Source: Nemertoderma westbladi
Lineage: Eukaryota > Animalia > Xenacoelomorpha
DNA: 58,623 nt
NCBI GenBank assembly: GCA_032718475.1
Contig: JAUCBJ010008236.1
Span: 1-58,623 of the forward strand
Direction of reading: 5' to 3'
Below the pieces are notes generated by a model, which was not told where the DNA came from, did not search any database, and saw only the letters and a list, made by a program, of their open reading frames with translations. Below, piece after piece: positions 6,992 to 48,964 of this stretch; position 1 is the stretch's first letter; the number at the start of each line of letters is the position of its first letter. The translations under genes and the position numbers were made by a program.

Positions 6992-7321
6992 ATAGCATCC
7001 TTGCCTTGATAATATTATTTGATAAATACATAGGTAACGACTTTGTTGCTTAATCAATGTATATACCACTATCTTTCTATATGTCATGATTTTGTTTCTC
7101 AGATAATAAAATTTGTTAAATATATAATGACTTTATACGATTCTTAAATATGGCTCACTCTATGGCTCATGTTTAAAATTTCTTATCATTGTCAGACACA
7201 ATTCTCTGGAATTTATATTCTACCCGTAATCTGCCTATACACTATCTGAAACTCAAAACTATACATACACTGCTATTTTAATTGTTTGTTTGCTTAAGTT
7301 CATTTATATTCAACTGGTACA

Positions 7322-32746: not shown

Positions 32747-33811
32747 AGTAGTAATGGTTTGCCACTCGGCGACAGTTAGACCCACTTCGCACCTTGGGTG
32801 TTAAGTAGGTCATTAATTAATTAATCAATTAATTAATTGGTCGATTAAACAATTAATTAATTGTTTAATCAATCGATTTGTATCAAATAATGTTGCCAAA
32901 GGCAATTTAATTTGATACAAATCAATCAGATAGGGGGACGCGCGATGAATAAATTGTACTATAACAAACGAAATATACAATACAATATACAATACATTTG
33001 TATTATTTTTGCCGTACAATAAAATGATAGAATTAAATATAAAGACGCAATCGAGGCCCAAAACATAAATATACCCTTTCACCAAAATAAAGTGGCCCCA
33101 GTTTGGTCCCGAATCATCCCTCAATAATCTATGGCTGTTTGGGCTCTTATTAACCGTAGCATGACTAACCCAATCATCAATGCGTGAATGGGACCTGCGT
33201 GAATGGGGCCTGCGATAGAGCTTAAATTATTCATACCCACAGCTTCGTTATTACATCAATTCATCCAAGAAATTAGAATAAACATCTGGTATGGCATTAG
33301 TTTGCATTCTTTCGCATTGTATTGCGAAGCAGTCCACGCGCATATTAGCTCAACAACAAAGCCCTACCCAAAACACCACATGTCAAATTAATTCCCAACC
33401 ATCTCTTTACTACAGTGGATACTGCAGTTTTTTTTTGTTTGAAGTAATTTCAGAGATGCTCTAGCGTAACATTAATTAACATACCCATTCATTCATTACA
33501 CACACTTTTCTCCAACGCACTCCCCCGCTTCTCAATTCATCCCATTTCCCTTCGTAACTAATGTTTTACATTTAATTAACCCAATAAAATGTGTTTATTA
33601 TTCCCACAATCCAATAGCGCGTCTCTCTCTCTCTCTTTTTTATTTCTATTGGTTCCCACAAGCTTCACTTTTATTTTCATTGGTTATCCTTTCCCTTATA
33701 AACCCCCACCCTTCGCTTCGAACTTTACTTACAAAAATATTATTGACAATTTTACTTTTTATTTAAAGTTATAATACATTTATTGTTATACATAATATTA
33801 TATTTTCTTCA
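32747..33811 (+). repeat. Polinton left TIR
   Basis: Reverse complement of 47628-48693 with only a few differences. Confidence 0.97.
33585..33730 (+). promoter_or_regulatory. Pol II promoter within the left TIR (four CCAAT/ATTGG boxes + TATAAA)
   Basis: CCAAT at ~33581 and ~33611, ATTGG at ~33648 and ~33679, TATAAA at ~33697, ~115 nt upstream of the ATG at 33814. Mirrored in the right TIR upstream of pPolB. Confidence 0.65.
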
Positions 33812-33813
33812 CG

Positions 33814-35526
33814 ATGGCTCAAGCTCAACTCCTTCAAAAGTTCAACTTCCCTCAAGTAAAAATTGTTTCCAACGAAAATCAAATATCTCTCTCAGACAAC
33901 TCTTTCGGTTTATATTTTGATCCTTCAAACAAACGCTTTCCAATGATGGTTACCACTTCATCTAACCAACCCCAACTCATTCCAGCAAATTATGCACATT
34001 TCATTCTACGATCCTGCTTTGAGTTGAAGGATGGACAATATCAAACTCTAAATAATGATAAATTTCATTCCGCAAACCATGGTTTCAAACTGCACAAATC
34101 AGAATCGAATATAACGTTCAATCTGACAACCTCGTTAGAAACATTTGTAATACCTCAACCGGTTGTTGAATATATCCACAGCAATGTAACACAAGAATCT
34201 GCAAACAAGCTCCTTGGTATGTCAACACTCAAAGCTTCCTTTTTTGTTGATGAGTGTCTGTTTGATTTTCATAATATTTCAAACTCAATTCTTTTAATTA
34301 TTTGGAACGCCTCGATTCATCCCCTCAAAGATGAATCTCGTTTCTTCAAACTGTTTGGATATGATGTACTAACTTTTATTGAACAATTGAATGAAATAAC
34401 CTGTTTCTACAACAACAACAAAGCACATTATTTTGGTTTTAATTTTAAAGTTGTTCGTTATTCGAAAACATCCCCACTAAAACCTATTGATTTAATACAA
34501 CTAGAAGATACAGTAGATGGGGGTTGGTTAACCATTTCAGACACTGCGGCTGCTTTACTACAACATTATATAAACATTTGTCGTCCTTACATCAATCCAA
34601 TCTCGCACATTGTCTTAGAGCCAGAGAACTATGTTTCTTTCGATAGTTCTACTTTTGGTTATATCACAAACATTAATAATAAAAGAAACATTGCAATCGC
34701 GAGCGGAGTTGAGGTTGATTCAAACAAAGTTATTGTTTCCACAAGAGATGCACTTTTACTCATGAGAAATGAACTTCTTAAAATTTCATGGTTCGATTCT
34801 GCGGTCGAAGGATACGAATGCTACGATGAAGTCAACCACGAAGAATTAATTTCAGATCGAATAAAAATTTATACCGCTTACAACTGCGAAACCCTCGAAA
34901 TTTCTGACAGACGCTATGACTACATGTTCTCTATTGACAATACAGATCGCGCCCGAGAAGCACTCTCTGAACTAAAGTCATTGGCCAACAATAGTGATTA
35001 TGAACCAAAGCAACTACAACTACCTAATCACCAGTGTCTTAATTTATACGAATCAGTAGCGGCTTTCATTTATTCATTCAAAGGCGAAGCTTATGTTGGC
35101 ATATGGCCCGTCATCAAAAAAGATTTGAAATCAACCACGTTTCAGTTTACCGATGGTTTAAATATAAAAGCGAGTGATTTCTCCAACTTTCATCCCATTC
35201 AACAATCCACTTCCTTCCATTACTATCTCACCCCCCTTATACACATTCAACATACACCATCAGAAACAATTATTGTCAGCCTGAAGACAACAAACAAATT
35301 AACCCTACCTTCAAACTATGCTGTTGAGTGTTGCATCAACTTTCTCAAACGCACACTAAAAGACGCAGTTTTCCTCCCCAAGCAGATCCACCTCAATCTA
35401 TTTCACCCTAATGATTCCCCCAACATCTCTAAAAGATATTCGATGGAAATTGTAAAACGAAAATTAGCTCACTATCCTCCATTAGAACAGAAAAAGATAA
35501 AGCTAGATGCTGTGGATTTAAACTAA
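33814..35526 (+). CDS. Polinton accessory protein, 570 aa, with a PC4-like (ssDNA-binding/coactivator) motif and a C-terminal NLS-like end
   Basis: Long intact ORF starting 3 nt inside the TIR boundary. AFIYSFKGEAYVGIW...DGLNIKASDF resembles the PC4 pattern VSVRDFKGKVLIDIREY...KGISLNPEQW. Ends PPLEQKKIKL. Confidence 0.6.
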   Translation: MAQAQLLQKFNFPQVKIVSNENQISLSDNSFGLYFDPSNKRFPMMVTTSSNQPQLIPANYAHFILRSCFELKDGQYQTLNNDKFHSANHGFKLHKSESNITFNLTTSLETFVIPQPVVEYIHSNVTQESANKLLGMSTLKASFFVDECLFDFHNISNSILLIIWNASIHPLKDESRFFKLFGYDVLTFIEQLNEITCFYNNNKAHYFGFNFKVVRYSKTSPLKPIDLIQLEDTVDGGWLTISDTAAALLQHYINICRPYINPISHIVLEPENYVSFDSSTFGYITNINNKRNIAIASGVEVDSNKVIVSTRDALLLMRNELLKISWFDSAVEGYECYDEVNHEELISDRIKIYTAYNCETLEISDRRYDYMFSIDNTDRAREALSELKSLANNSDYEPKQLQLPNHQCLNLYESVAAFIYSFKGEAYVGIWPVIKKDLKSTTFQFTDGLNIKASDFSNFHPIQQSTSFHYYLTPLIHIQHTPSETIIVSLKTTNKLTLPSNYAVECCINFLKRTLKDAVFLPKQIHLNLFHPNDSPNISKRYSMEIVKRKLAHYPPLEQKKIKLDAVDLN

Positions 35527-35832
35527 ACTTTATGTTACTTGTCTATTGTAACTGGTCATGTAAATGTTTACTGTTACTGTTTACTGTTACTTTACTGTCT
35601 AAATGTTAAATGTAACTGTTTAACTGTTTTGATGTTCTTTGTTTAACCCCTATATTATTTATCCAAAGTTGAAAAAGAAAAATGAAATATAGTCGACTAT
35701 TTTCTTATTTTTAATATAGCAACATTGAAATTATATTTATAACATAACACATATACATATAGCAGAGTAACATTTAAGATATAACACATTGTAACACATA
35801 AGATATAACACATTGTAACACAATTAATAATA

Positions 35833-36261
35833 TCAATTCATTATGGCTTTGTTCCGCAACCAACATGCAAGTATCTTTTCATTTTGTTTCAAGTCTGTTC
35901 CAAACTTGCGTAGAGGCGTGTCAGTTTTTGATCGTTCAGATAAGTAATATAAACAGTATCCCCCACAACTCGTCCTTAGAGGGTGTTGAACCACTTTTCG
36001 TGTCCTTGACCATTTTATTGTATTACGCAACAACCAGTCTTCTATACGAGCCGGGGGGAACACTCCAAATGAATCAAAGTATTCACCTATATTTTCATTC
36101 ATAAAAACAGCCACCCAATGCATACCAGGTAAATGAGCGGCTTGAGTATTTGAAATGAAGCTCATTTTAGAGCCATCCTTTGCTGGTAATTGATCAATGG
36201 CGAAAGAACCACAATAATGTTCTCCTATTGGGAAATTATTCAAATCATATGAGTTCAACAT
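35833..36261 (-). CDS. Adenain-like cysteine (maturation) protease
   Basis: PGMHWVA (His), EYFDSFG (Asp), QHP..TSCGGYC (Gln, Cys). Confidence 0.93.
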   Translation of the reverse strand: MLNSYDLNNFPIGEHYCGSFAIDQLPAKDGSKMSFISNTQAAHLPGMHWVAVFMNENIGEYFDSFGVFPPARIEDWLLRNTIKWSRTRKVVQHPLRTSCGGYCLYYLSERSKTDTPLRKFGTDLKQNEKILACWLRNKAIMN

Positions 36262-36271
36262 GTTTTTCTTT

Positions 36272-37509
36272 CTAGAAAATAGTTACGGATCCAACATTGC
36301 TGATATTCACAGTTCTATCATATCCCACCCACATAATTACGTTAATTGTATTTTGTAAAGGAGCTGAGAAAGCATCTCTAATCTAGCATTGCCTATTTGA
36401 TGTGGGTTTCGTTCGTCTTCATCAATAAATCCCGTGGGGGATAAATTCCAAGAAAATATTGGATATAAATCACGAAATCTAGTGGGAGTAATGCCGTTGT
36501 TTGTACCTCTGGTTATAGATAGAAGGTTTTTTTGACTGGCGCAATACTCATTAATATATTGTCCATTAGCAAAATTTGGTTTATATGTCACACCTCCAAT
36601 TACCTTACCATCCAACGTAAGTTGTAAGTAATTCACATTAAAGTGATCAAACAATAGTGAATTAGATCTTAAGTTTCCATTGTAAGAATCATTTCGAACC
36701 ATGACAATATTAACAAAGCGAGGTACATTCTTGCTTGTAAACAAATTTTCCCTCACATGAGATTGTTGACCATTTGCTATAGTAAAGGTTGTCACCTCAT
36801 TCTGCATAATTGGATAAATATAATCTCCTATTTTTAATTGTTCTATATGTTGTTGACGTATATATGGATCCAATTTTACTCGTTTAATTTTCAGCAAAGC
36901 ATTAGATATATTGATTCGAGGCTCTTGTACGGCTGCAATACATACTAAGTTAAATGCATTTGTTGCTCTTGTTAATCTAATTCTTATACTAGTTTTGGGT
37001 GGGATAAATTTAACCTGTTCAAAAAGGTCAACAAATAGAGACCCCTGAACATAATATGGTCTACTTTCCAAATGAGCAGCTGCAGCAAAGTCTACAGGAA
37101 CACCAAACGCTTCTTGTTCTGCAAACCCTTCGGCAGCTAAAATCGTTTCTTTTGTACTCTGATCATTAAGTAAGACCGCTTTTAGGAAAGCTTTATAGGG
37201 ATAGTTGGCAGTATTAGACTCTACCTCCCGCTCATTAATCAAAACACTAATGTTTGAAAATAGAGTAGAGAGGCTTAGTGGTGTTTGATAAACTGCGCCA
37301 TTGTCAGGTCGTATTGTTGTTACAACACGATATACTAATTGTAGTGTTGTTTCACTTCCTATCGTATAGTAATCTTCTGACTTTTCAATCATGAAATCTA
37401 TAACTGATGTGCCCTCTCCCAATGTAGTCACAGGGTATATTTCCTGCTCAAAACTTTCTTCAATTACACTCTGAACATCACTGTGATTAAATAAATTTAG
37501 TTCTTCCAT
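36272..37509 (-). CDS. Major capsid protein (double jelly-roll), with a 1-nt frameshift near 36370
   Basis: N-terminal ELNLF..VQSVIE..IYPV, NYPYKAFLK, DLFEQ.KFIP..IRIRLTR, FDHFNVNYLQL. The expected C-terminus FSAPLQNTINVIMWVGYDRTVNI...* is in the adjacent frame and ends at 36272. Confidence 0.88.
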
Positions 37510-37535
37510 GGTTTCTTCCAGTGTTATTATTTAGT

Positions 37536-38144
37536 TTAACCAAAAATATCTGGACAGTGATGCTTTTTTGATTTGCGTTTTTTGCGAGTTTCGTTTATTG
37601 ACCTCCCATCAGCTGCGTTTAAAACTTCTTCAATAATTTTATGAGCTACTCGTTTAGTGGAAGGTTTTGAGCTGGCGAGAGCCTGTTCTGCTAATTTCTT
37701 TCCAATCTTTTTAAGTTGTGGAATTCCCCGACGAATTACTCGTTTGACAATTTTTCTCCCTGTCTTTTTTACAAAAGGAGCACTTTTGCGAATTGCTGCT
37801 CGCGCGACGGGCTTAATAACTTTGGGCACTACTTTAGTTGCAATCCGAATAATATTTCCAAGGATACCTTTACCTCGTTGACCGTGTCTCACAAAAACTG
37901 TGCGACTGTTCATGTGTCGATGTCTATATCCCCCCTCAAAATAAGGTAGTCCTCCCCCCGCCTTTCGTTTCCATTCTAATAATTGTAATCGTTGCCTCAT
38001 TATGGAAGGAGGTGTAACCATTTCTGAGCTGAGACCCTTCATCGTCCCAGTCTGTTTATTTTTAACACCACCGCGAATAACCTTATAAAGTGTTCTCTGT
38101 AATGTTTTCTACAAACTCCTTTGATAATAATCTTTATAACTCAT
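37536..38144 (-). CDS. Basic virion core/membrane-active protein with GG/GxG cleavage motifs; in-frame TAG at codon 12 (38109-38111) or start at 38042
   Basis: QRGKG followed by the amphipathic ILGNIIRIATKVVPKV, Lys/Arg-rich, ending DIFG, as in conserved Polinton small structural proteins. The upstream in-frame ATG at 38144 gives MSYKDYYQRSL*. Confidence 0.7.
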
Positions 38145-38175
38145 TGCTTCCTAAATATATTTCCTTATTTATCGT

Positions 38176-38970
38176 TTATTGGCGTTTCAAAATTAATGTC
38201 GCAATTACAGTACCATTATTAAACTTTATGAATTCATCTCGATCATTTTTTAACTGTATATTTATTGTTTCTATATTTTGCATATCAATGGATTTATAAT
38301 TAATATTTGTGAATTCATGATGAACAAGCTTACCATAATCTCCTTGATAAGGAATAGATCTTAAGTGGGGTTTCAGTTGATTTCCAACAATCTCATTTCC
38401 GCAAATATTTGAAAATATACTAATGTTTCCCATAAAAACATTTGCTGCTTTTTGAATATGTAATATATCAGAATCACCCTCTATTTCCCCCCTTCGCGTT
38501 ATTTGTAGATAATCATTTTTTAGGCTAACAAGAAATTTATTTTTATTAACATAATACTCATTTTCTAATCCCCGCAATCCAAGTAACTCAATCAACTTAT
38601 TTCCATAAAAACGAACAACTTTACTTTCGTCGATAAACTGAATACTAATGTTGTCATAAAGCTCATTTTGTCTTATTTCTAAATGGGAATTGAGACCATC
38701 TATATTTAGCTGTGTAAGCAACGCCTCCACATTAGTATAGCAACCAGATGGTATTATATATTTTCTTTTAGTTCCTTGTAAACTCCGAATATAAATGAAT
38801 GTATCTTCTAAATTATGAACCGAGGAGAGGTAAACAAATTCTGACAAACCCACCATCCACTTTCCACTAAAACGCAATGGTTCAGATAGTTCCACATTAA
38901 AGTTAGAAGGTTGATTTAATGGAAATCGTTTAGGTGAAGAATTCGAGGGTAAATATAATATTTTCTCCAT
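38176..38970 (-). CDS. Minor capsid (penton-like) protein 2
   Basis: LPSNSS..FP.N..SNF.VEL..PL...GKW.VGLSE at the N-terminus and INIQLKN...IKF..GTVIATL at the C-terminus. Confidence 0.85.
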   Translation of the reverse strand: MEKILYLPSNSSPKRFPLNQPSNFNVELSEPLRFSGKWMVGLSEFVYLSSVHNLEDTFIYIRSLQGTKRKYIIPSGCYTNVEALLTQLNIDGLNSHLEIRQNELYDNISIQFIDESKVVRFYGNKLIELLGLRGLENEYYVNKNKFLVSLKNDYLQITRRGEIEGDSDILHIQKAANVFMGNISIFSNICGNEIVGNQLKPHLRSIPYQGDYGKLVHHEFTNINYKSIDMQNIETINIQLKNDRDEFIKFNNGTVIATLILKRQ

Positions 38971-39797
38971 TATGACTTACTTTTTAAGTGTAGGGTAATT
39001 ATTGTTGCACCTCCATTAAATAATATTAGTTCTCCTTTTTCGTTGCGTAATTCAATATTTATCTGATTAACAACTGTTCTAGCAACTGGTCTGTAATAAA
39101 TTTTTTTAAATTCGCGTGTTATAACTTTATTATGCTCAAGTTCGAGAGGTACCGTGCGTAATAACGGTGCCGTCGTATTTCCTACAGTCACATGAGAAGT
39201 AATGTCACTATAGATAAACAAATTATGTCGCCCCAAGACTAAATCGCAAGAAAAGGGACAAATCCCTCTAAATTGAGCACGCTGGCCCGGTTGCTGTTTG
39301 AATGTTAAAGAACCAAATTCACAAACATTTACACTCCAATAATCATACCAATTAGCTAGATAAGGTACATCCCTCGGATCATAATCCTGCGTAAACTCCT
39401 CAAAACCGAGTATTGTAATCAAATCTCCAGTAATTTCAAAAGAAAAGTGTTGCGAAGTAGCGAGCTCGATTTTATTTGAGTATTTGAAATATTGAATTTG
39501 GGGCCACTTCGGGTGATCAATTTGTTGATTGATTTTATTAATAATGGCTTCTACACTCGTATATAGTCCTGGTTCAAATATAACAACTTGCGATGTCCTA
39601 TCTCCATAATAAATTGTAAACAGAGATTGTTGACGTATATTATAGAATGAGGAACAGTATTGAATTTCAGATAGTCCCACTTCTACATCACCACTGAGAT
39701 TGATTGTATAGGGTAGATCAACCGTAAATTTCGAAAGGGTGTTATCAGGAAATTTGTTTGTAGGTCCATTTGAGAATAAAGTTATATAGTTATTCAT
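38970..39797 (-). CDS. Minor capsid (penton-like) protein 1
   Basis: FPDNTLSKFTVDLP..INLSG.VEVGLSEIQY, LFIYSDI..VGNT.APLLR, INIELRNEKGELI.F. Confidence 0.9.
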   Translation of the reverse strand: MNNYITLFSNGPTNKFPDNTLSKFTVDLPYTINLSGDVEVGLSEIQYCSSFYNIRQQSLFTIYYGDRTSQVVIFEPGLYTSVEAIINKINQQIDHPKWPQIQYFKYSNKIELATSQHFSFEITGDLITILGFEEFTQDYDPRDVPYLANWYDYWSVNVCEFGSLTFKQQPGQRAQFRGICPFSCDLVLGRHNLFIYSDITSHVTVGNTTAPLLRTVPLELEHNKVITREFKKIYYRPVARTVVNQINIELRNEKGELILFNGGATIITLHLKSKS

Positions 39798-39806
39798 TTT
39801 GTTGAT

Positions 39807-40886
39807 TTATTTACGTAGTTGAGACTCGCTCAACCAAGAGTTCCGTTTATAGTTTTTAAATTTTACAAGGAATTCCTTCCGACCGTTTTTTATTCGAGAC
39901 TTCAAAATGGACTCGATTGGCTGAATATCAGTTGTTTGTGTAACCTTTTGCAATTCGTGAGGGTAAAATGTTCCTTCTATTTCTCTATCAACTGAATCTA
40001 TTATATGATACATAGGCTGAGGAAAACGATCTAGTCTTATACGTTTTACAGTAAACACCTCTCCGGTCCAATTTTTTGTATAACCTTTTTCAAACGCCGT
40101 TTTAGCTATATTAAGTCGCACATTGTCACCTATTCTCAATTTGGGTTTTGTTACAATGATTTTAGCTAAATTTCCATAGAGGTTTCTTCTCACGTTATCT
40201 TCATTCAACTTATTGACTTGAATTGGGGGCATTCCAATAGATCTATGTAAAGAATTATTATAAGAGTATACAATTTTTGGTAGAATAGCAAGCCACTTAT
40301 GGTTACCTCTTCTACTAAAAATTTTATACATCTTTGTCTTTATCGTTCTATTATACCTTTCGCAAATGGCTGCTTTGAACTGCGATCGTGTTGTATAATA
40401 TTTAACTTTTTTCATTTTCAAGTAATTGAGTACAACTTTATTGTCGAATTCCAACCCTTGATCTGTACATAAATTACGTGGTACTTCTTCAGTAAAAATA
40501 GACTGTAGTGCATGTTTAATTTCAATACCAGTCTTCCGTTTCAATGGTAATGCCCATCCCTTCTTACTAAAACAGTTGATTGCGGTTAGAATATATCCAT
40601 AACCTGAGTTTGTTGCGCGATATTTTTGCATATCTATTAAATCTGCCTGAATGGTGTCACTAATTCCATAAAAATACATTCGGCTTGTGGGAAACAGACG
40701 CCTCGCTGGGGCATGCAATGTGTAGGTCGGCTGACTTTGAAGCCATCTTTTCACGAGTTTTGGATTGACTCCCGTCTCTTTTGCTAGCTTTCCTACAGTG
40801 GAAAACCCTGCAACACTTGAAGGATTGTAGTAAGCTTTGGCTAAGCGTTTTTCTACCATCTTGTTGATCATAACCATAGGTAACAC
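39807..40886 (-). CDS. Retroviral-like (rve) integrase with C-terminal chromodomain-like region
   Basis: DDE residues in QADLIDM, CTDQGLEF and AICERYNRTIK; FEKGYTKNWT; IESILKSR...EFLVKFKNY..NSW. Consistent with the 6-bp TSD. Confidence 0.95.
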   Translation of the reverse strand: MLPMVMINKMVEKRLAKAYYNPSSVAGFSTVGKLAKETGVNPKLVKRWLQSQPTYTLHAPARRLFPTSRMYFYGISDTIQADLIDMQKYRATNSGYGYILTAINCFSKKGWALPLKRKTGIEIKHALQSIFTEEVPRNLCTDQGLEFDNKVVLNYLKMKKVKYYTTRSQFKAAICERYNRTIKTKMYKIFSRRGNHKWLAILPKIVYSYNNSLHRSIGMPPIQVNKLNEDNVRRNLYGNLAKIIVTKPKLRIGDNVRLNIAKTAFEKGYTKNWTGEVFTVKRIRLDRFPQPMYHIIDSVDREIEGTFYPHELQKVTQTTDIQPIESILKSRIKNGRKEFLVKFKNYKRNSWLSESQLRK

Positions 40887-40946
40887 TGCTAGAATTGCAT
40901 AGACAACGAAAATTGCAAGTTACTGAAAGTTTTTTTAACCAAGACA

Positions 40947-41129
40947 TTATTTTCGCGATTTGCGGCGCGTATAATCAAACAGTTTCAACACTTTTCTTCT
41001 ATCGTTTATTGTCCGTTTATTTTGAGCTTTTTTCTTTGTTTCTTTAATTAAAGGTTTAGTTTTCAACTGTGTTGGTTGCAACCTAGCATGTTGTTCGGGG
41101 GTTATTAAATATAGTTTCTTGAATGACAT
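40947..41129 (-). CDS. Small basic Polinton protein, 60 aa
   Basis: ATG start, packed 2 nt after the upstream gene; MSFKKLYLITPE resembles the N-terminus of small ORFs preceding Polinton integrases. Confidence 0.55.
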   Translation of the reverse strand: MSFKKLYLITPEQHARLQPTQLKTKPLIKETKKKAQNKRTINDRRKVLKLFDYTRRKSRK

Positions 41130-41131
41130 GG

Positions 41132-41473
41132 CTATGTTAACGCTGTGGCAACAGTTGTGGCAATGTTTGTGGCGCCTATCAACAGTGGCAAAATAAGTGG
41201 AAGGAACCCCCCAGCCTGAGAGAGAGAACGTCTTTGAAGTGAAACTGAATTTTTCGATTTCAATCGTCTCATATATTTCTTATATGGCTTCAATTTTTTA
41301 ACAATCTTTCCATCAATATTTATATTCCCATAGAGCGTATTCAGTGTAATATTAACGAGAAGTCGTATTAATTCGCTACTAGCCTTTTTTCGAATAAATG
41401 CCCCTCGCGCTAATGCGTTGCTATTTTTCAAAAATTCTAGTTCTTTCCTATACTTTCGTATATTAAGTTCCAT
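41132..41473 (-). CDS. Polinton core protein (adenovirus pX/Mu-like), 113 aa
   Basis: Basic body with NTLYGNI..LKPYK, then QAGG/FLPLILPLL hydrophobic tail (adenain-type cleavage site). Confidence 0.8.
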   Translation of the reverse strand: MELNIRKYRKELEFLKNSNALARGAFIRKKASSELIRLLVNITLNTLYGNINIDGKIVKKLKPYKKYMRRLKSKNSVSLQRRSLSQAGGFLPLILPLLIGATNIATTVATALT

Positions 41474-41587
41474 ACTTGTTCTATAATATTAAGAAATTTA
41501 AGAAACCTTTGTCGATGATAAACCACAAATAAGTATAATATAACTAAATAACAGACAATTGCTAATAGAAGCATTCTTCTACGTATA

Positions 41588-42214
41588 TTACGACACGGGT
41601 TGATAAACACAATGTTCATTTGTAAATAAATAACCACGTATGCGTAGGCTATCATTCGTTAATTGATGAAAATCAATAAGAAGTGGGTTAAAGGGAACCT
41701 TTGTTGCGTCTTGAAATGCCGCGATTAAGAATTTGGGTGTATTTGGTTTCATCTGATAGGCTAAAGTTCTTATCTGTGTCTGATCCCTCGGATTTTTGAA
41801 CAATAAGAAATAAGTGGAATTAATGGACCGGGTCCTAGATTCTCCTCCTTTTTGATAAAGGTTTTGAGTGAGAAAAATTACCAATGAATTTGTATGTCGA
41901 GCTACTTTAGTAAATAGCGTAGTCGCTTGTTTGGAATTTTGTAGTTCTGTCATCAAATCGTCGATTATAATGATAGAATGGTTTTTCACATTTTCATTAA
42001 AGTGTTCTGGAATTTCATTTAAAGCGGTAATATTAACCCCTTTAATTATTGGTTTCGTCTGTCCATAAAACCAAGTAATACTGTTTGGAGTTTCGTTAAA
42101 GATCAATTTCCTATTTAATAACATTTTCTCCAAGAAAGAAGTTTTTCCACTACCACTAGGACCGGCTATTAATATTGTACTTCCAAAACGAAACCGCATA
42201 TCTACTATATCCAT
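41588..42214 (-). CDS. A32/FtsK-like DNA packaging ATPase
   Basis: Walker A GPSGSGKT, Walker B IIIIDD, ARH, LTQNLY, FKNPRD. Confidence 0.95.
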   Translation of the reverse strand: MDIVDMRFRFGSTILIAGPSGSGKTSFLEKMLLNRKLIFNETPNSITWFYGQTKPIIKGVNITALNEIPEHFNENVKNHSIIIIDDLMTELQNSKQATTLFTKVARHTNSLVIFLTQNLYQKGGESRTRSINSTYFLLFKNPRDQTQIRTLAYQMKPNTPKFLIAAFQDATKVPFNPLLIDFHQLTNDSLRIRGYLFTNEHCVYQPVS

Positions 42215-42574
42215 CGTGTTTTCCTTTTATAACACAATTATTATTATATTTATTAAAATAATAATTGAATTTTAACGTTTATACAGTATAATATGAAACT
42301 AATGTTCGTGTCACAAATGCATGCCATCTAGCGGCTTTAGTAAATATTTAAATTTATATAATGAATTCACCAGTTTAACAACTAATCACTCAATGGAGAA
42401 CAAGCGCAGTAAACCTTGGCCTTACGGATATTTTGGGAGGGGTTTGGTGAGGAGAGGTGGGTTCCCATTACTTGTTCTCAAGGTAAGATGTTATTAATAA
42501 TATAATTCAATATATTTTTTACATAAATTTAATAAAACTATATGTTACATGAATATATAGAACCACATGCAGTA

Positions 42575-42831
42575 TAATCACATAAATATATAAAACCACA
42601 CATACAGTATAATAACATGTAGTATATTGAGAGATAATATAATCACATAAATATATAAAACCGCACATACAGTATAATGACATGTAGTATATTGAGAGAT
42701 AATATAATCACATAAATATATAAAACCGCATATACAGTATAATGACATGTAGTATATTGAGAGATAATATAATCACATAAATATATAAAACCGCATATAC
42801 AGTATAATGACGTAGTATATTGAGAGATAAT
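42575..42831. repeat. 65-bp tandem repeat, 4 copies, inside the Polinton
   Basis: TAATCACATAAATATATAAAACCGCATATACAGTATAATGACATGTAGTATATTGAGAGATAATA recurs with period 65. Confidence 0.92.
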
Positions 42832-42839
42832 TTTACTTA

Positions 42840-43364
42840 TTAATTCAATAAACTAAATAATATAATGAGAGCTTCTTCAAAATCACCAACAGGACACATA
42901 CTTATAACTTTCATAGAGTGAAAGACACTGAAATAACATCGCCCAATATACAATCGAATTCCACAAAAGAGCTCCGGCGTAAAATCAATATATACCTTTA
43001 CATTGTTTACAAAATGATGTCCACACTTTTTACTTAATGATTTAAAATTAAGAGATGGTAACTTAATTAGTCTGGTCACTGTATTTAAATTAATTTTCTT
43101 AATTAGTATGTTGGTACATTGTTTCAGATAAAGTAAATCATTACAAATATTTTTACATGGACCCACTATTGTTATTGAACCAGTTGGGAATAGCATAATT
43201 GTCGCAGATCCAGTCTTATACACAAACATTTTTGGTTTTTGCCGCATCTCACCTTTTAGTTGTTGAGAAACTTTGATTATATCAATTGGAAATTCAGTTT
43301 GAGCTGTATATTGGCGATTGATTATTTGAATTGGTATTGATCCGCTGCTTGCTTTGTATGGCAT
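42840..43364 (-). CDS. Divergent TATA-binding protein (TBP)-like protein, 174 aa
   Basis: Two-repeat TBP core pattern: FPIDIIKV ~ FPIRLEGL; ATIMLFPTGSITIVG ~ TTALIFSSGKMVCTG; FTPELFCGI ~ YEPELFPGL; SVFHSMKV ~ LIFVSGKV; FEEALIILFSLL ~ IYEAFENIYPIL. The length matches a TBP core. ATG at 43364 (the track start at 43376 is TTG). Confidence 0.8.
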   Translation of the reverse strand: MPYKASSGSIPIQIINRQYTAQTEFPIDIIKVSQQLKGEMRQKPKMFVYKTGSATIMLFPTGSITIVGPCKNICNDLLYLKQCTNILIKKINLNTVTRLIKLPSLNFKSLSKKCGHHFVNNVKVYIDFTPELFCGIRLYIGRCYFSVFHSMKVISMCPVGDFEEALIILFSLLN

Positions 43365-43491
43365 TTTATTCTGCAACTAAATAAGGTGGTATTACAGTTT
43401 TTTTTTGTTGGTTTAGTTAACCCCGTAATATAGTGGCCATATGGTCTACTGTAATATTTCGTCATCCAGAATGATTTTGTATCCCAGAGAC

Positions 43492-46400
43492 TTAATATGT
43501 TTTTTTTTTTATTCTCCCTGTAAACATTTGATGCTCCCTAGAAGTAAATATTGTATTGTTTGTGTAATCTGTTGATTCGTTGATAAAACAGTCTAAATAG
43601 TGTTTATGTGTTAATTGCTTGGCTACAATATTTTTTGAAATTCCTTTGCAAGTCCGCTTTGGTTGCGCATCGTATGCCTCGAATGAATACATTTTCGGTT
43701 TTAAAAATACAAATGATCTGTATAATAGACCTCTACTTTCATCTTTCAAAAAACCTAAGGAAGCCTTGTTTTGATTGGTAAAGAGTGGGTGTGAGGGGTC
43801 GTAATTTGAAGTGTCTAGAAAGCCGGAGTTAAACATGGCTTCTAGGAATATTTTGTGCTCAACACCGGTAACCGAAAGAAAGAAACTGTCTGTGTCTCCG
43901 GCTAAGGCTCGAATTTCACATCTCAGCTTTTCTTCGAGAGGTTTCAGTTTACAGTAATAGTAATCATACATCTCTAGCTTTGAAAGATCTAAGATGGTTG
44001 CTCCAATAAATACAGCTTGATTGAGTACTGCTACTTCTTTAGTAAAAGTGTGACCACTGAGATAGGGGGAGAATGAGATGAAGCGCTCATGATTTGGTTT
44101 TGATAATAGTAGATCGCACTGTTCTGGAGATGTACAGAGTCGGAATGATAGCCGGTCTCGTACCTTCTGAAGACTTTTCCCATAGAGTGAGTTGTTGAGT
44201 AGTTTATAAAATAAAACTTCGAATGCATTTTTAGCGGATTGTCGTTTGGATGTATTAAACGAGATATAGTCTCTGAATATGTATTTTTGAGTGAATGAGT
44301 ATACTTTATGCACCTGTGTTATTTGAAGTCCTAATTTTAAGTATAATTGGAGTAATTTTATATGAATACCATAATTAGTTTTTTTGAATTGATGAAGAAT
44401 CAGTTTACTATATTTCTCATTATATTGCTTATAAGTGCCTTGATCATTGAGATTATAATGTTGCCAGAGGTCTTGCATGTATGTACTAAGAAAGCTCTTG
44501 GGAATGGACATTTTTTCCGCTCCTAGTGGTAGGTCGGCAGTTTCGTCGTGGATCTCTCGGGGGTATTCGAGGTCAACGATACAGTAATACCCCACTGACC
44601 AAGTGGCATCAACTGTAGCCAGATCTATTGGTGTATCGACGATTTTCATATTACTGCAGGGGAGCTTCTGAGAGAGAGCAGAACCATAAAGGTTATTTGC
44701 ATCGAGAGGAATTAGGTATTTTTCTGGTTTACAGGGGTTGTATTCTGGTTTGCCAGGTATATTAGCTTCCTCTAAGTGTGTATTCAGAAATACAAGCCCT
44801 CCACGAATATTATTTTCAAAATCTGCGTAAATAGTTCCATCAGATAGTAGTTCAATTTCACTGTTTGTAAATTTCAATGCTGCATCGTACGTTAACCCCG
44901 GTGAAGTATAATAATGCAGAGGATCTAACCCATAATTGGAGAAACATAGTTCCCTAAACTGTTGGAAAGTATCCGCGAGAAGTGTGACATCTAGAGCCAA
45001 GTATCCCATCATATAATCAAATATATTTTGACATTGAAGCTCAACCCAACTAGTTTGGGCACGCTGATAGTTATGCTCGCTACAGTCTTCAAGCTGTAAA
45101 TCGTTATAGAAACTCTCGATTGGTGGTAATTGAGTTTCGTATAAGTTTGTTATGGATTGTATATAGCTATAAGGAAATATACCTTTATTTTTAATAGTGG
45201 AATCGCTAATATTGGGATAAAGATTTTTCATTTGTTTCAAAGTGTGTGGGATAGCTTTTGTTAGATCAGAATTGTTTGCAGTAAGATAACTACTGAGCTT
45301 ATCTAGACTAGCTGTCATGAACTGCAGAGAGTCTAGAAGATTGATGACAATACTTTCTTTCGCATTTGCTGTCTGCATGGTTTTGTCTATGGGAAATGAT
45401 ATTTCTATACTGATATAAGTCTCAGTGTTCTTTGGAATTACGTTTATCTTCCAATGAGTTCTAGAACTGTTTTTCAGACCTTCTTTTAATATTAAATGGG
45501 AATCGTAATGCCTCAGGTTGTGTAGCACTACATAAAATTTATTGCGTTTAAGAGAAAGTTTGCGGTTACAACTAACACATGCCGCCCCACGATAGGCTCC
45601 CGTTAGATGGTTGTGGTCACAAACTTTAGTATTGAGATTTTCTGCTAGATTCAGTCCATGTGAATCGGGGGTTAGAGAACAGTTACAAGTGTAACAGTTT
45701 GTAGCATTATCAAAATTTTGTTGCTGTGCTCGAGTCAAATGTTTAGGAACGTTGGTGTTTGTACCAGAAATAGTCCACTCGTACAATTCCCTACAGTGCG
45801 ATTCGAGAGCAGTGAGAAAATCGTCTATAACATGGTTTGTTCCAGTGTCTCTAAACATTTGTAATGATGTTTGCGGGGGATTTATTAGCTCGCAATTGGG
45901 TACTGTATAAAATGCGGCGGCGCTAGCAATGTGCTTTTGAACTAATTTAGGGTTTGATGTAGGTTCTAAAACGCTTTCAATATCGGCATATATGCAAAAG
46001 GGAGGGGATAATGTTTTATCTAATCGATTGAATTTAATTTTTAATTTGTCAGGTGTAGGCATTTGTTCCAATTGTCGTTTGCTCGTGTAACATAGTTCCC
46101 GATGAGTTTGCAATGAGTTAATAGTATAAAAAGCTCTCAGACAACGCTCACAAATTGATTTGGTCCCTTGTCCTGATTTATTAATAAGTCTATTTAAGTT
46201 GACAATTGCGCAGTAATGTCCTGGATTGTTTTGATTACCTTCTATAAACATTAAATTTAAAACAGTTTTTTGGAAGCAATGTTCTGGATCTGGTTGTGAT
46301 AGAATGCTCAATATGTTATCAGTACTCCAAAATAATAAATTAATGCAGTACAAAGGGTTGGTTTCTAAAAAACGTGGGATGCCTATTACTCTATCTACTG

Positions 46401-47430
46401 GGAAACTCATCGTACTGAAATCAAACATGGTCATGTATGGAGTATATGTTGACAATCGACTAATGTTTTGTTTCTTTCTTTCAATTTTTTTATAACAAGC
46501 AGAAGCAACTACTGCGTACTTAAAACATTCCCCAATGGGACAATCTAAGTTAATAATGCACTGCTTCTTTGCTAAAATTTTAGGAATATAACCACCACCG
46601 TGTCCTTTGAAATAGGGGTTGCGGTTGAAGGTAGAAATTTGTAAATTGATTTCTTTAATTGAAACAATATTCCAACCACTGCCCATGCAAACAAAGACTG
46701 CTATTAATTCATCTATTCGTTCGATAGTTTGCGAAAACCAGTTTTCAAAATCTAAATTAGAAGTTATTTGATTATTTGAAGCGTTTGATTTGAAACAGAA
46801 GGTTTCTAATTGAGTATCCTCAGATGTCTCCCTTTCCATTAAGATAGAAATAGTTAACCAAACTTTTATAAAATTAAATTCATTATTAAAATGTTGACTC
46901 ACTCTTTCCCAAATATTACTTTCATTTTCTCTAAGTGTTAACTCTACATCTAATTGTGGTGTAAGTAACGTGTTTGTATATGTAAATAAGCGGTTATGGG
47001 ATGAGCTGTTCACGGATGGTAAAAATGGGTTGTTGCTCGAACCTCCAGTCTGTTGTCTTGAAGTAGAAGGGCCAACCCTTGGAGATTGAATGTTTGGTGG
47101 TGGAGGTGGTGGTGGTGGTGACAAGGGCGTTTGAGATTGTTTGCGTTTCCGAGAGAAGAGTCGCGTATAGCAATCGTGTTCTTTAAAGGCTGATAAAGTG
47201 AATGATTCACCACACTTGCAAGTGTTTTCTTCGTTGATAAATCTAAACCCAGTCCCACCTTGCGTACATAGTGCTAGATGGCTAACCATGGTTTTCTTAT
47301 CGGAGGACCAGGTGCCACAACAATCGCATGAATATTGTTTAAAATGAGTTCCGAGATGATTGTTGAGATGATCGCTACGCATGTTCTTATTGCAGACGGG
47401 ACAGTCAACGAATTTTGATGACATAGGCAT
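43492..47430 (-). CDS. Protein-primed family B DNA polymerase (pPolB) with N-terminal zinc fingers and an endonuclease VII-like insertion; C-terminal frameshift at an A11 run
   Basis: Exo motifs YADIES, HNLRHYD and YLALDV; Pol motifs LDANNLYG, KLLNNSLYGK and GDTDSF; EndoVII-like CYTC...DHNHLTGAYRGAACVSCN. The canonical end LSLWDTK...RPYGHY lies in another frame just beyond 43492. Confidence 0.96.
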   Translation of the reverse strand: MPMSSKFVDCPVCNKNMRSDHLNNHLGTHFKQYSCDCCGTWSSDKKTMVSHLALCTQGGTGFRFINEENTCKCGESFTLSAFKEHDCYTRLFSRKRKQSQTPLSPPPPPPPPNIQSPRVGPSTSRQQTGGSSNNPFLPSVNSSSHNRLFTYTNTLLTPQLDVELTLRENESNIWERVSQHFNNEFNFIKVWLTISILMERETSEDTQLETFCFKSNASNNQITSNLDFENWFSQTIERIDELIAVFVCMGSGWNIVSIKEINLQISTFNRNPYFKGHGGGYIPKILAKKQCIINLDCPIGECFKYAVVASACYKKIERKKQNISRLSTYTPYMTMFDFSTMSFPVDRVIGIPRFLETNPLYCINLLFWSTDNILSILSQPDPEHCFQKTVLNLMFIEGNQNNPGHYCAIVNLNRLINKSGQGTKSICERCLRAFYTINSLQTHRELCYTSKRQLEQMPTPDKLKIKFNRLDKTLSPPFCIYADIESVLEPTSNPKLVQKHIASAAAFYTVPNCELINPPQTSLQMFRDTGTNHVIDDFLTALESHCRELYEWTISGTNTNVPKHLTRAQQQNFDNATNCYTCNCSLTPDSHGLNLAENLNTKVCDHNHLTGAYRGAACVSCNRKLSLKRNKFYVVLHNLRHYDSHLILKEGLKNSSRTHWKINVIPKNTETYISIEISFPIDKTMQTANAKESIVINLLDSLQFMTASLDKLSSYLTANNSDLTKAIPHTLKQMKNLYPNISDSTIKNKGIFPYSYIQSITNLYETQLPPIESFYNDLQLEDCSEHNYQRAQTSWVELQCQNIFDYMMGYLALDVTLLADTFQQFRELCFSNYGLDPLHYYTSPGLTYDAALKFTNSEIELLSDGTIYADFENNIRGGLVFLNTHLEEANIPGKPEYNPCKPEKYLIPLDANNLYGSALSQKLPCSNMKIVDTPIDLATVDATWSVGYYCIVDLEYPREIHDETADLPLGAEKMSIPKSFLSTYMQDLWQHYNLNDQGTYKQYNEKYSKLILHQFKKTNYGIHIKLLQLYLKLGLQITQVHKVYSFTQKYIFRDYISFNTSKRQSAKNAFEVLFYKLLNNSLYGKSLQKVRDRLSFRLCTSPEQCDLLLSKPNHERFISFSPYLSGHTFTKEVAVLNQAVFIGATILDLSKLEMYDYYYCKLKPLEEKLRCEIRALAGDTDSFFLSVTGVEHKIFLEAMFNSGFLDTSNYDPSHPLFTNQNKASLGFLKDESRGLLYRSFVFLKPKMYSFEAYDAQPKRTCKGISKNIVAKQLTHKHYLDCFINESTDYTNNTIFTSREHQMFTGRIKKKTY

Positions 47431-47435
47431 GTTTG

Positions 47436-47560
47436 CTATAAAATAAAAAAACTAAATAATAATAATAAGTTTGGGAAGGTTTCGCGGGGTTGATTTTTAT
47501 TTTGAGGCAATAATGTTAAAACTAATCGAATTCATAAAAACACAAATTTATTGTTCTTAC
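47436..47560 (-). other. Predicted 125-nt intron in the pPolB 5' UTR
   Basis: CTGCAG|GTAAGA donor and TTTTATAG|CAAACATG acceptor, 5 nt before the ATG. Confidence 0.65.
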
Positions 47561-47627
47561 CTGCAGATTGATGATGTTTGCAACAATATATTATGTATAA
47601 CAATAAATGTATTACGTATAACAATCT

Positions 47628-48693
47628 TGAAGAAAATATAATATTATGTATAACAATAAATGTATTATAACTTTAAATAAAAAGTAAAATTGTCAATAAT
47701 ATTTTTGTAAGTAAAGTTCGAAGCGAAGGGTGGGGGTTTATAAGGGAAAGGATAACCAATGAAAATAAAAGTGAAGCTTGTGGGAACCAATAGAAATAAA
47801 AAAGAGAGAGAGAGAGACGCGCTATTGGATTGTGGGAATAATAAACACATTTCATTGGGTTAATTAAATGTAAAACATTAGTTAGGTTGGGAAATGGATG
47901 AATTGAGAAGCGGGGGAGTGCGTTGGAGAAAAGTGTGTGTAATGAATGAATGGGTATGTTAATTAATGTTACGCTAGAGCATCTCTGAAATTACTTCAAA
48001 CAAAAAAAAACTGCAGTATCCACTGTAGTAAAGAGATGGTTGGGAATTAATTTGACATGTGGTGTTTTGGGTAGGGCTTTGTTGTTGAGCTAATATGCGC
48101 GTGGACTGCTTCGCAATACAATGCGAAAGAATGCAAACTAATGCCATACCAGATGTTTATTCTAATTTCTTGGATGAATTGATGTAATAACGAAGCTGTG
48201 GGTATGAATAATTTAAGCTCTATCGCAGGCCCCATTCACGCAGGTCCCATTCACGCATTGATGATTGGGTTAGTCATGCTACGGTTAATAAGAGCCCAAA
48301 CAGCCATAGATTATTGAGGGATGATTTGGGACCAAACTGGGGCCACTTTATTTTGGTGAAAGGGTATATTTATGTTTTGGGCCTCGATTGCGTCTTTATA
48401 TTTAATTCTATCATTTTATTGTACGGCAAAAATAATACAAATGTATTGTATATTGTATTGTATATTTCGTTTGTTATAGTACAATTTATTCATCGCGCGT
48501 CCCCCTATCTGATTGATTTGTATCAAATTAAATTGCCTTTGGCAACATTATTTGATACAAATCGATTGATTAAACAATTAATTAATTGTTTAATCGACCA
48601 ATTAATTAATTGATTAATTAATTAATGACCTACTTAACACCCAAGGTGCGAAGTGGGTCTAACTGTCGCCGAGAGTGGCAAACCATTACTACT
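47628..48693 (-). repeat. Polinton right TIR
   Basis: Reverse complement of 32747-33811. Confidence 0.97.
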
Positions 48694-48964
48694 GATGCAT
48701 TGGCCGAGTTTCTTACTGCTGAGCTTGTTACTAACGTCCATCCATTTCAATGTCATTGTACTTCATGGCAGTGTCTTCATGAAAAATCCGATGTTCTTGG
48801 ATGCAGATGATGTCGATGTTATATTCCATTGCTAGAGCGACCATGTCACCCTGTTTGCTCTGTGCTTTCAGCGTGCATGCGTTCATTGTAGCAATCTTTA
48901 GTTGTCTTTTAAGTATGTACCGCCACGTTGCCACCAATTCGCTTCTGTTTATGACTATGTTTAT

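What the first reader, a model, noticed from the sequence alone, without database searches (positions are those of the whole stretch)
42840..43364. A Polinton that encodes its own divergent TATA-binding protein
Seen: an intact 174-aa ORF directly downstream of pPolB with the size and two-repeat motif pattern of a TBP core. Three of the four DNA-intercalating Phe positions appear retained (MLFPTG, ELFCG, SVFHS). The first stirrup (YNPKRF in cellular TBP) is replaced by RQKPKM, and one central Asn appears to be Thr. Established: TBP is not a Polinton core gene, although it occurs in large nucleocytoviruses. Inference: the element may carry a promoter-specificity factor that redirects Pol II to its structural (late) genes, or a TBP decoy. 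I cannot confirm that this is undescribed.
Basis: partly seen in the sequence, partly recalled or inferred. Interest (0 to 1): 0.88.

Follow-up and report, generated by a model that had tools for sequence, protein, structure and literature searches.

The report
Polinton's rewired TATA-binding protein
A recently inserted, virus-like Polinton element carries an intact, extremely diverged gene predicted to fold like the cell's TATA-binding protein, and several of its packaging and putative capsid genes sit behind a shared TATA-like word that this protein likely reads to switch them on.

Summary
Confirmed. The 174-aa ORF (minus strand) lies in a 15,947-bp Polinton with 1.07-kb TIRs and a 6-bp TSD. 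Pfam TBP alone is weak (E 0.0014), but its one hit among 1.84 billion proteins is a two-repeat TBP, a profile of 12 relatives hits it at E 1e-12, and an alignment-based model (pLDDT 85) matches TBP (Z 15.2; next fold 8.2). Three Phe are kept, F99 is lost, N159 is Thr. Only 4 of 16 DNA-contact positions are identical to yeast TBP and one TFIIB glutamate is lost. The conserved neighbour is the packaging ATPase (5 of 9 related loci), not pPolB. TATAAAC lies 35-69 nt before the ATPase in 5 of 6 TBP-bearing elements; ATAAACG precedes five genes here, not pPolB or TBP. Best reading: a private late-promoter factor for host Pol II (about 0.5; binding untested). A 2021 figure legend already labels TBP in related viruses, and this scan noted Polinton TBPs 28 times in at least 3 other genomes. 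Side finding: in 5 of 5 relatives with an upstream SSB-like ORF, TBP follows in frame behind TGA-CT, suggesting stop-codon readthrough.

The parts
42840..43364 (-). TBP-like gene, 174 aa, intact, own ATG
32747..33815 (.). left terminal inverted repeat (starts AGTAGT); TSD GATGCA at 32741-32746
47624..48693 (.). right terminal inverted repeat (ends ACTACT); TSD GATGCA at 48694-48699
43492..47430 (-). protein-primed B-family DNA polymerase, 1312 aa
   Evidence: no Pfam polymerase hit (only Endonuclease_7 E 7.5e-4); assignment rests on recalled PolB motifs visible in the translation
42573..42831 (+). four 65-bp tandem repeats, 97% alike, each with TATATAAAAC on the plus strand, directly behind the TBP stop
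42277..42283 (-). TATAAAC box 69 nt before the ATPase ATG; same word 35-50 nt before the ATPase in 4 of 5 related loci
41588..42214 (-). A32-like packaging ATPase, 208 aa; conserved downstream neighbour of the TBP gene
   Evidence: Pfam Pox_A32 E 3.8e-5, over cut-off; synteny
41132..41473 (-). 113-aa basic protein with pX-like tail
   Evidence: Pfam Adeno_PX E 0.036, under cut-off; counterpart in L002
39807..40877 (-). retroviral-type integrase with chromodomain; two AATAAACG words 132 and 143 nt upstream
   Evidence: Pfam rve E 5.5e-6, Chromo E 7.5e-4
38970..39797 (-). 275-aa ORF, putative minor capsid protein (inferred, no profile hit); TATAAACG 54 nt upstream
38176..38970 (-). 264-aa ORF, putative second minor capsid protein (inferred); no ATAAAC within 200 nt
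37536..38042 (-). 168-aa very basic ORF, putative core protein (inferred); ATAAAC at -17 and -137
36337..37509 (-). 390-aa ORF, putative major capsid protein (inferred, no profile or homologue hit); AATAAACG 89 nt upstream; possible frameshift near its 3' end
35833..36261 (-). adenain-type cysteine protease, 142 aa
   Evidence: Pfam Peptidase_C5 E 0.0055, under cut-off; 36% match in L001
33814..35526 (+). 570-aa ORF of no known family, transcribed inward from the left TIR

Best explanation
The gene encodes a Polinton-specific protein predicted to keep the TBP saddle fold with a remodelled DNA-contact face, and it likely binds the element's own (T/A)ATAAACG box so that host RNA polymerase II would transcribe the packaging, integrase and capsid genes after an early phase. 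SHOWN: intact ORF in a bounded, young element; homology to a family of short TBPs; three intercalating Phe and N69 kept; the box before five genes of the morphogenesis block and not before pPolB or TBP; the same box before the ATPase in relatives. PREDICTED: the fold. INFERRED: (1) TBP is an early gene; its ATG follows an acceptor-like TTATTTAGTTGCAG, and pPolB has a CAG/GTAAGA donor-like site 130 nt upstream and its own acceptor-like site, so one TIR-driven leader could be spliced to either gene; (2) the protein bends the box with three Phe instead of four; loss of P191 (C134), which in cellular TBP favours T at position 1, would fit the A-or-T first base; (3) host TFIIB/Pol II would be recruited through the C-terminal stirrup, where E188 (E131) is kept but E186 is Thr, so this contact is probably weaker or altered here, unlike in all 12 relatives; (4) the shortened, less basic N-lobe would escape TFIIA, TAF1 and Mot1/BTAF1 control, as argued for other viral TBPs.
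For: Fold: model from 7 sequences pLDDT 85, pTM 0.74; Foldseek PDB best E 2.8e-8, TM 0.74, every row shown to rank 44 a TBP or TBP complex, first other fold TM 0.29; VIA Z 13.0-15.2 for five TBPs, next 8.2; viral TBPs lead the named rows of BFVD. Family: all 8 related-locus ORFs scanned and P0001-P0004 pass the Pfam TBP cut-off (L008's partial ORF was not scanned); T97, P44, F59, G68, E131, F133, F148, K152 invariant in 13 of 13. Synteny: TBP directly before the ATPase in L002, L005, L007, L008, L009 (5 of 9). Box: 6 of 7 ATAAACG in the element interior lie within 150 nt upstream of ATPase, integrase (2), 275-aa, 168-aa and 390-aa genes; 3 of 500 random window sets did as well; none within 200 nt of pPolB or TBP. 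Four of these lie inside the coding region of the gene before, where a poly(A) signal would cut that gene short. TATAAAC within 100 nt of the ATPase ATG in 5 of 6 TBP-bearing elements (3-8% of random windows in those five) and 0 of 8 distant ATPase loci without a TBP hit. Constraint: 8 variant sites in 4 runs, 5 synonymous, 3 non-synonymous, no stop; 21% synonymous expected, P 0.013. Precedent: herpesvirus vTBPs read a variant box through a more polar face.
Against: No binding, expression or timing data; no RNA run is listed. The model depends on an alignment of TBP-like relatives; alone the sequence folds poorly (pLDDT 44.7). This copy differs at 7 positions invariant in 12 of 12 relatives (family R, M, E, H, N, G, G at 65, 67, 129, 144, 146, 151, 157) and has the longest branch, yet keeps the same box, which weakens a tight protein-box match. 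Four of the six sites contain AATAAA, the poly(A) signal, and one overlaps a stop codon; in relatives ATAAAC often overlaps stops. A PDB title (1qn3) shows wild-type TBP bound to the C(-25) adenovirus box, which by recalled numbering is TATAAAC, so host TBP could read the T-version. Three of eight tested morphogenesis genes (113-aa, 264-aa, protease) lack the word, and TATAAAC also lies in the TIRs upstream of pPolB (-312) and the 570-aa ORF (-117). The 8 TBP-less control loci are only 23-40% ATPase matches, not close Polintons. The six differences shared by all four runs are 3 synonymous and 3 non-synonymous, and the test has no transition correction. No TFIIB-like gene was found in the element, although most viral TBPs come with one.
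Confidence: 0.5

Rival explanations
1. The protein binds element DNA but does not nucleate a TFIIB-Pol II complex: it acts as a repressor, a bending or architectural factor, or in replication or packaging, while host TBP drives the promoters.
For: E186 equivalent lost and the C-lobe SGK and G216 motifs changed in this copy; in 5 relatives the TBP is in frame behind an SSB-like ORF, which ties it to the replication apparatus; an array of four TATATAAAAC repeats lies right behind the gene.
Against: Both TFIIB-contact glutamates are invariant in 12 of 12 relatives, which is hard to explain without a TFIIB-like partner; the box spacing before the ATPase fits a core promoter.
Confidence: 0.2
2. The gene is under relaxed selection or decaying in this lineage; the ATAAACG words are poly(A) signals or host-read TATA variants kept for other reasons.
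For: Loss of 7 family-invariant residues and a very long branch; archaeal TBP profile gives only 4.8 bits against 15.6-41.1 for the relatives; 4 of 6 sites contain AATAAA; one depth-4 contig has a gap and a minor joint goes back 48 nt in two runs.
Against: ORF intact at about 25% identity to its nearest relative, which neutral decay would not leave open; synonymous excess among variants; Phe, Gly, Lys and Glu landmarks kept; confident model.
Confidence: 0.13
3. It is a TBP decoy that soaks up host TFIIB, TFIIA, Mot1/BTAF1 or NC2, or occupies host TATA boxes, to damp host transcription.
For: Saddle fold and E188 kept; a host-shutoff role is common among DNA viruses (general knowledge).
Against: 13-17% identity to cellular TBPs; N-lobe helix region shortened to 28 residues from 33 and with 4 basic residues against 7 in a canonical-type TBP; a decoy should keep host-like surfaces; an integrated multi-sample element gains little from shutting down its host.
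Confidence: 0.1
4. It is a recently captured fragment of a host TBP/TRF gene.
For: The trees place it between the relatives and the canonical TBPs with only 69/74 to 77/55 support for the relatives alone, so a separate capture is not excluded; no eukaryotic host TBP was in the trees.
Against: Family profile 43.2 bits versus archaeal profile 4.8 bits; shares the derived T97 and shortened first stirrup; same gene order and box as the relatives; no close cellular hit in three searches.
Confidence: 0.03

Closest known systems
Cellular TBP (Pfam PF00352; yeast 1ytb/7o4i, human 1cdw, Arabidopsis 1qn5, archaeal 1mp9)
   Same: Predicted two-lobed saddle over residues 9-174 (Z 15.2, rmsd 2.6 A, 160 aligned); F116, F190, F207, N69, E188, L189, K211 kept.
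   Different: 13-17% identity; F99 absent; 4 of 16 listed DNA-contact positions identical; N159 is Thr, P191 Cys, L205 Ser, E186 Thr; first stirrup and basic helix shortened; under the Pfam cut-off.
[quoted passage not shown] 2021, PMC8502044, Fig. 5 legend; read: passages, section 3.4, supplement search with 0 hits)
   Same: A TBP-like gene in a Polinton-type, PolB-bearing midsize virus.
   Different: Only a label in a legend, in the section on non-animal datasets; figures are not held, so I cannot tell which element bears it or whether it is this family; no residue, promoter or mechanism analysis in the passages found.
Beta/gammaherpesvirus vTBP (KSHV ORF24, EBV BcRF1, HCMV UL87; PMC12529657 passages and section 15, PMC4893493 passages)
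   Same: Viral TBP fold with a more polar DNA face paired with a variant box on late genes and use of host Pol II; L205 is Ser in both ORF24 and this protein.
   Different: ORF24 is 752 aa with Pol II-binding and extra DNA-binding domains, keeps all four Phe and needs five viral partners; this protein is a bare 174-aa core, box (T/A)ATAAAC not TATT, no partners identified, function untested.
TBPs of nucleocytoviruses (PMC7221094, passages and sections 11-12; BFVD matches)
   Same: Divergent N-lobe regulatory surface and variable C-lobe glutamates.
   Different: Those viruses nearly always encode a TFIIB-like protein and, from general knowledge, usually their own RNA polymerase; neither was found in this 16-kb element.
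Polinton/Maverick (adintovirus) elements
   Same: TIRs with AGTAGT ends, 6-bp TSD, pPolB, rve integrase, A32-like ATPase, C5 protease, putative capsid genes.
   Different: TBP is not among the described core genes; 0 mentions of TBP or TATA in PMC10748475, PMC11131425 and 10.64898/2026.06.19.733378 (term look-ups only).

Membership tests
TBP fold superfamily | two-lobed saddle fold | tested here: met
   predicted model, (alignment-dependent; single-sequence model poor)
Pfam PF00352 (TBP) | score at or over the curated cut-off 22.9 | tested here: not met
   18.8 bits, E 0.0014; the 12 relatives scanned pass
canonical cellular TBP | four intercalating Phe (F99, F116, F190, F207) | tested here: not met
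   three kept, F99 absent in every register
canonical cellular TBP | two central Asn (N69, N159) | tested here: not met
   N16 kept, T97 for N159, Thr in 13 of 13 family members
canonical cellular TBP | two C-lobe stirrup Glu for TFIIB (E186, E188) | tested here: not met
   E131 kept, T129; both Glu in 12 of 12 relatives (role)
canonical cellular TBP | basic N-lobe surface for TFIIA/TAF1/Mot1/Brf1 | tested here: inconclusive
   segment shorter and less basic, but the five signature positions were not mapped one by one
canonical cellular TBP | binds and bends a TATA box, nucleates a pre-initiation complex | not testable with these tools
   needs binding and transcription assays
Polinton short-TBP family (P0001-P0004, L001-L009) | profile match and derived residues (P44 with short first stirrup, T97) | tested here: met
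   E 1.4e-12; 43.2 versus 4.8 bits
Polinton short-TBP family | family-invariant R/M, H-x-N, E186, G210, G216 | tested here: not met
   7 of these positions differ: an outlier or sister lineage
Polinton short-TBP family | one clade with the relatives | tested here: inconclusive
   one side of a 100/99 branch against archaeal and one viral TBP, but long-branch warning, basal position and no eukaryotic TBP in the tree
herpesvirus-type vTBP late-gene system | variant box upstream of structural genes | tested here: met
   ATAAACG enrichment, TATAAAC before ATPase; correlation only
herpesvirus-type vTBP late-gene system | multi-domain vTBP with Pol II-binding domain and five viral partners | tested here: not met
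   174-aa core only; no partner families found
Polinton/Maverick | long TIRs, AG-rich ends, 6-bp TSD | tested here: met
Polinton/Maverick | rve integrase, packaging ATPase, protease | tested here: met
   (ATPase over cut-off; integrase and protease under it)
Polinton/Maverick | pPolB and jelly-roll capsid proteins | tested here: inconclusive
   no profile hits, no MCP homologue; assigned from recalled motifs, size and position

The most novel reading that the evidence does not exclude
Polintons carry the smallest known viral early-to-late switch: one bare TBP core, with no viral TFIIB or polymerase, re-tooled to read a private (T/A)ATAAAC box and plug into host TFIIB/Pol II. Its dose is held down by different devices in different lineages: UGA readthrough from an SSB-like gene in one clade, which would couple late transcription to replication as an SSB-TBP fusion, and alternative splicing from the pPolB leader in this element.
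Probability: 0.3. Interest if true: 0.78.

Novelty: new variant of a known kind. Interest (0 to 1): 0.52.

Why it matters
How Polintons order their gene expression, and so when an integrated copy makes particles, is open. A dedicated TBP with a matching box gives one protein and one 7-8 base word to test. It would extend the herpesvirus vTBP principle to a 16-kb element in a minimal form, and supply natural altered-specificity TBPs that lack one intercalating Phe and one central Asn. The in-frame SSB-UGA-TBP arrangement in relatives would be a recoding event for which my one search found no Polinton paper. The score is held down because viral TBPs are well known, a TBP label exists for related viruses, this scan has met the gene many times, and nothing functional is shown.

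Tried and rejected
Direct searches with the ORF: PDB phmmer 0, word-indexed homologue search 0 of 65 candidates, viral contigs 0 of 39, 0 of 64 and 0 of 83 candidate stretches for the ORF, P0001 and the alignment, NCBIfam 0. No close relatives of the putative MCP or the pPolB C-terminal part. No whole genome is held, so copy number and a many-copy dN/dS could not be done; contig depth is not a copy number and was not used. No RNA holder listed. Single-sequence model unusable. Internal repeat not detectable by sequence. The SSB-like ORF of the relatives has no counterpart in the window (best E 0.85) and no PDB or Pfam hit of note. No conserved RNA structure behind the TGA in the five loci (0 pairs), so a stem-loop readthrough signal is not supported. 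A TGA=Trp code was rejected: 31 Trp codons in 18 ORFs are all TGG and 12 of the 13 other ORFs end in TAA/TAG. Splicing at that junction fits poorly: no AG and no GTRAG there. The 570-aa and 110-aa ORFs gave no TFIIB or other family; a complex prediction of TBP with the 570-aa protein was not obtained, so this is open. The control for box and TBP co-occurrence found only distant ATPases. Motif scans for viral TBPs gave canonical-type TBPs (L010/L142, L144) and a TBP-SAP protein (L141, L146), none beside a Polinton-type ATPase; L011/L143 and L012/L145 were chance matches. A search for the Hoogsteen reading of TATAAAC found 0 papers, so that numbering stays recalled. Supplements of the bioRxiv preprints were not seen and could hold TBP annotations.

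Full report
OBSERVATION. The plus strand at 42840-43364 is closed; the ORF is on the minus strand, 174 aa with its own ATG, 127 nt behind the stop of a 1312-aa pPolB-like gene. It lies in a 15,947-bp element, 32747-48693, with AGTAGT/ACTACT ends, a GATGCA duplication on both sides and TIRs of about 1,070 nt with 1062 matches, 6 mismatches and two small indels, so the insertion is young. The element interrupts a retroelement (Pfam RVT_1 at 29511-30968). It also carries an A32-like ATPase, an rve integrase with chromodomain and a C5-like protease; the pPolB and capsid assignments rest on recalled motifs, size and position, not on profile hits. No genome is held and the host was not identified.

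IS IT A TBP? Direct evidence is thin: Pfam E 0.0014 under cut-off, 0 PDB hits, 0 word-indexed homologues; the ESM Atlas puts all 30 hits in TBP clusters, first score 0.95, with low recognition. The full HMMER scan of 1.84 billion representatives gave one hit, P0001 (E 7.7e-4; 26% over 151 columns), a 166-aa two-repeat TBP (63.7 bits; TBPs lead its PDB hits) on a 15.7-kb contig. From it came P0002-P0004 and 9 metagenome loci out of 161 candidate stretches; the 8 locus ORFs scanned all pass the TBP cut-off. A profile of 12 relatives without the query picks the ORF out of the window at E 1.4e-12. A model from 7 sequences reaches pLDDT 85 with two beta-alpha lobes (alone 44.7) and matches TBP by Foldseek (E 2.8e-8, TM 0.74, 13-17% identity) and VIA-align (Z 13.0-15.2 for five TBPs, next 8.2); viral TBPs lead the named BFVD rows. 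The fold call is secure, with the caveat that the alignment guides the model.

ANATOMY. Against the 16 DNA-contact positions tabulated for yeast TBP in PMC12529657, 4 are identical: N69, F116, F190, F207. F99 is absent in all registers tried, N159 is Thr in 13 of 13 family members, P191 is Cys, L205 Ser. Of the two glutamates that contact TFIIB (PMC7221094), E188 is kept and E186 is Thr, whereas 12 of 12 relatives keep both. The N-lobe helix region is shorter and less basic than in a canonical-type TBP (28 residues, 4 K/R, against 33 and 7). This copy is also an outlier within the family, differing at 7 positions invariant in 12 of 12 relatives. It scores 43.2 bits on the family profile and 4.8 on a profile of 77 archaeal TBPs; trees with 12 and then 8 of those 77 (second tree without L007 and L009) put it on the family side of a 100/99 branch but basal, on a long branch, with no eukaryotic host TBP included.

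SELECTION. Contigs of four runs (three samples) cover the ORF with 8 listed variant sites, no listed indel, one depth-4 piece with a gap and a minor 48-nt back-joint in two runs. Five sites are synonymous, three not, none a stop; P 0.013 against 21% expected, uncorrected for transitions; the six differences seen in all runs split 3 and 3. This is modest support for constraint.

CONTEXT. TBP lies directly before the ATPase in 5 of 9 related loci, and L002 continues with pX-like and integrase genes in the window's order; pPolB is seen in 0 of 9, most being short. In the element interior ATAAACG occurs 7 times, 6 of them within 150 nt upstream of ATPase, integrase (twice), and the 275-, 168- and 390-aa genes; 3 of 500 random sets of eight windows did as well; ATAAAC is absent from 200 nt before pPolB and TBP, and also before the 113-aa, 264-aa and protease genes. 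TATAAAC lies 35-69 nt before the ATPase ATG in the window and in 4 of 5 relatives, and in 0 of 8 distant ATPase loci without TBP, a weak control. Against a private promoter: four sites contain AATAAA, ATAAAC often overlaps stops in relatives, TATAAAC is also in the TIRs, and wild-type TBP has been crystallised on the C(-25) variant (title; numbering recalled). I ran the motif test after seeing earlier scan notes that reported such boxes; one note names TATAAAC in another genome. Splice-like signals (donor-like CAG/GTAAGA at 47560, acceptor-like sites 5 and 6 nt before the pPolB and TBP ATGs) suggest an early shared leader; this is inference.

SIDE FINDING. In L002-L006, all 5 loci that show the conserved upstream ORF, the TBP frame has no opening ATG and starts directly behind that ORF's TGA, followed by CT(T/G) GTN. 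The ORFs are 27-37% identical with unalignable tails, TGA ends 5 of 5 of them against 1 of 13 other ORFs, and Trp is TGG in 31 of 31 cases. The ORF resembles nucleocytovirus SSB-type clusters (score 0.91; Pox_I3 12%, DUF5871 15-17%, DUF2738 13% of members; a lead only; that these families are SSBs is recalled). No downstream structure was found. Programmed readthrough giving an SSB-TBP fusion is the simplest reading; the five share ancestry, and the window's element lacks this ORF.

MECHANISM. Most likely (0.5) an early-expressed, private promoter-recognition factor that bends the (T/A)ATAAACG box and lets host Pol II transcribe the morphogenesis block while escaping N-lobe regulators. Rivals: DNA-binding but non-activating role (0.2), relaxed or decaying gene (0.13), decoy (0.1), recent host capture (0.03). 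Only anatomy, homology, synteny and motif position are shown.

KNOWN WORK. Starrett et al. 2021 label 'TBP' in MELD viruses with adintovirus-like PolB (PMC8502044: passages, section 3.4, one supplement searched with 0 hits; preprint 10.1101/697771: passages). Viral TBPs are surveyed in PMC7221094 (passages, sections 11-12) and herpesvirus vTBPs in PMC12529657 (passages, section 15) and PMC4893493 (passages). Searches for Polinton with TBP terms listed no paper whose title or abstract start concerns a Polinton TBP, and term look-ups in three Polinton/PLV papers gave 0 TBP or TATA mentions; the library lacks most subscription papers. This scan holds 28 earlier notes on Polinton TBPs in at least 3 other genomes, none on a look-alike of this sequence or on readthrough.

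VERDICT. Real, a new variant of a known kind (viral TBP). It works most plausibly like a herpesvirus vTBP in minimal form, but is not a member of that system nor a canonical TBP. Interest 0.52.

Noticed in passing
L002:2443-2451, L003:966-974, L004:1864-1872, L005:790-798, L006:516-524: TBP frame begins in frame directly behind the TGA of a conserved SSB-like ORF, context TGA CT(T/G) GTN, no opening ATG: candidate programmed readthrough giving an SSB-TBP fusion.
   Followed up: partly
window 42573-42831: Four 65-bp repeats, 97% alike, each with TATATAAAAC on the plus strand, right behind the TBP stop; could be a binding array, an antisense promoter or a neutral expansion.
   Followed up: no
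window about 36280-36380 (-): A second frame stays open for about 35 codons across the end of the 390-aa putative capsid ORF, so this copy may have a frameshift near the 3' end, or an assembly error; not checked against homologues.
   Followed up: partly
window 47435-47560 and 43370-43385 (-): Donor-like CAG/GTAAGA 130 nt upstream of pPolB and acceptor-like sites just before the pPolB and TBP ATGs; AATAAA overlaps the TBP start.
   Followed up: partly
window 33814-35526 (+): 570-aa ORF with no Pfam, NCBIfam or PDB match, facing inward from the left TIR, with a basic C-terminal tail that may be a nuclear signal.
   Followed up: partly
window 40950-41279 (-): 110-codon stop-to-stop frame between the pX-like gene and integrase, at the place of a 232-codon ORF in L002; no family hit of note.
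   Followed up: partly
window 29511-32775 (-) and 10448-11000 / 30992-31544: The Polinton is inserted in a fragmented LINE-type element (RVT_1), which itself holds a 553-nt piece 99% alike to another retroelement fragment in inverted orientation.
   Followed up: no
window 21686-24673 (-): 995-codon frame with a weak tyrosine-recombinase match (Phage_integrase E 0.009) and an internal 15-residue repeat; possibly a Crypton-like or Polinton-like element.
   Followed up: no
window 50969-58601: 418-nt inverted repeats (98%) around a 650-aa transposase-like ORF at 55926-57878 with no Pfam hit: a probable young DNA transposon.
   Followed up: no
window 4976-8851 (+): Two long ORFs (671 and 517 codons) in tandem, the first with a weak DUF1258 match, resembling a two-gene DNA transposon.
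   Followed up: no
L002:6255-7037: A related Polinton carries a dynamin-family GTPase gene (Dynamin_N E 1e-10) right behind its integrase.
   Followed up: no
L146:2584-4284 and L141: Viral contigs with a 566-aa protein joining a TBP domain to a SAP domain; no Polinton-type ATPase within the fetched flanks.
   Followed up: partly
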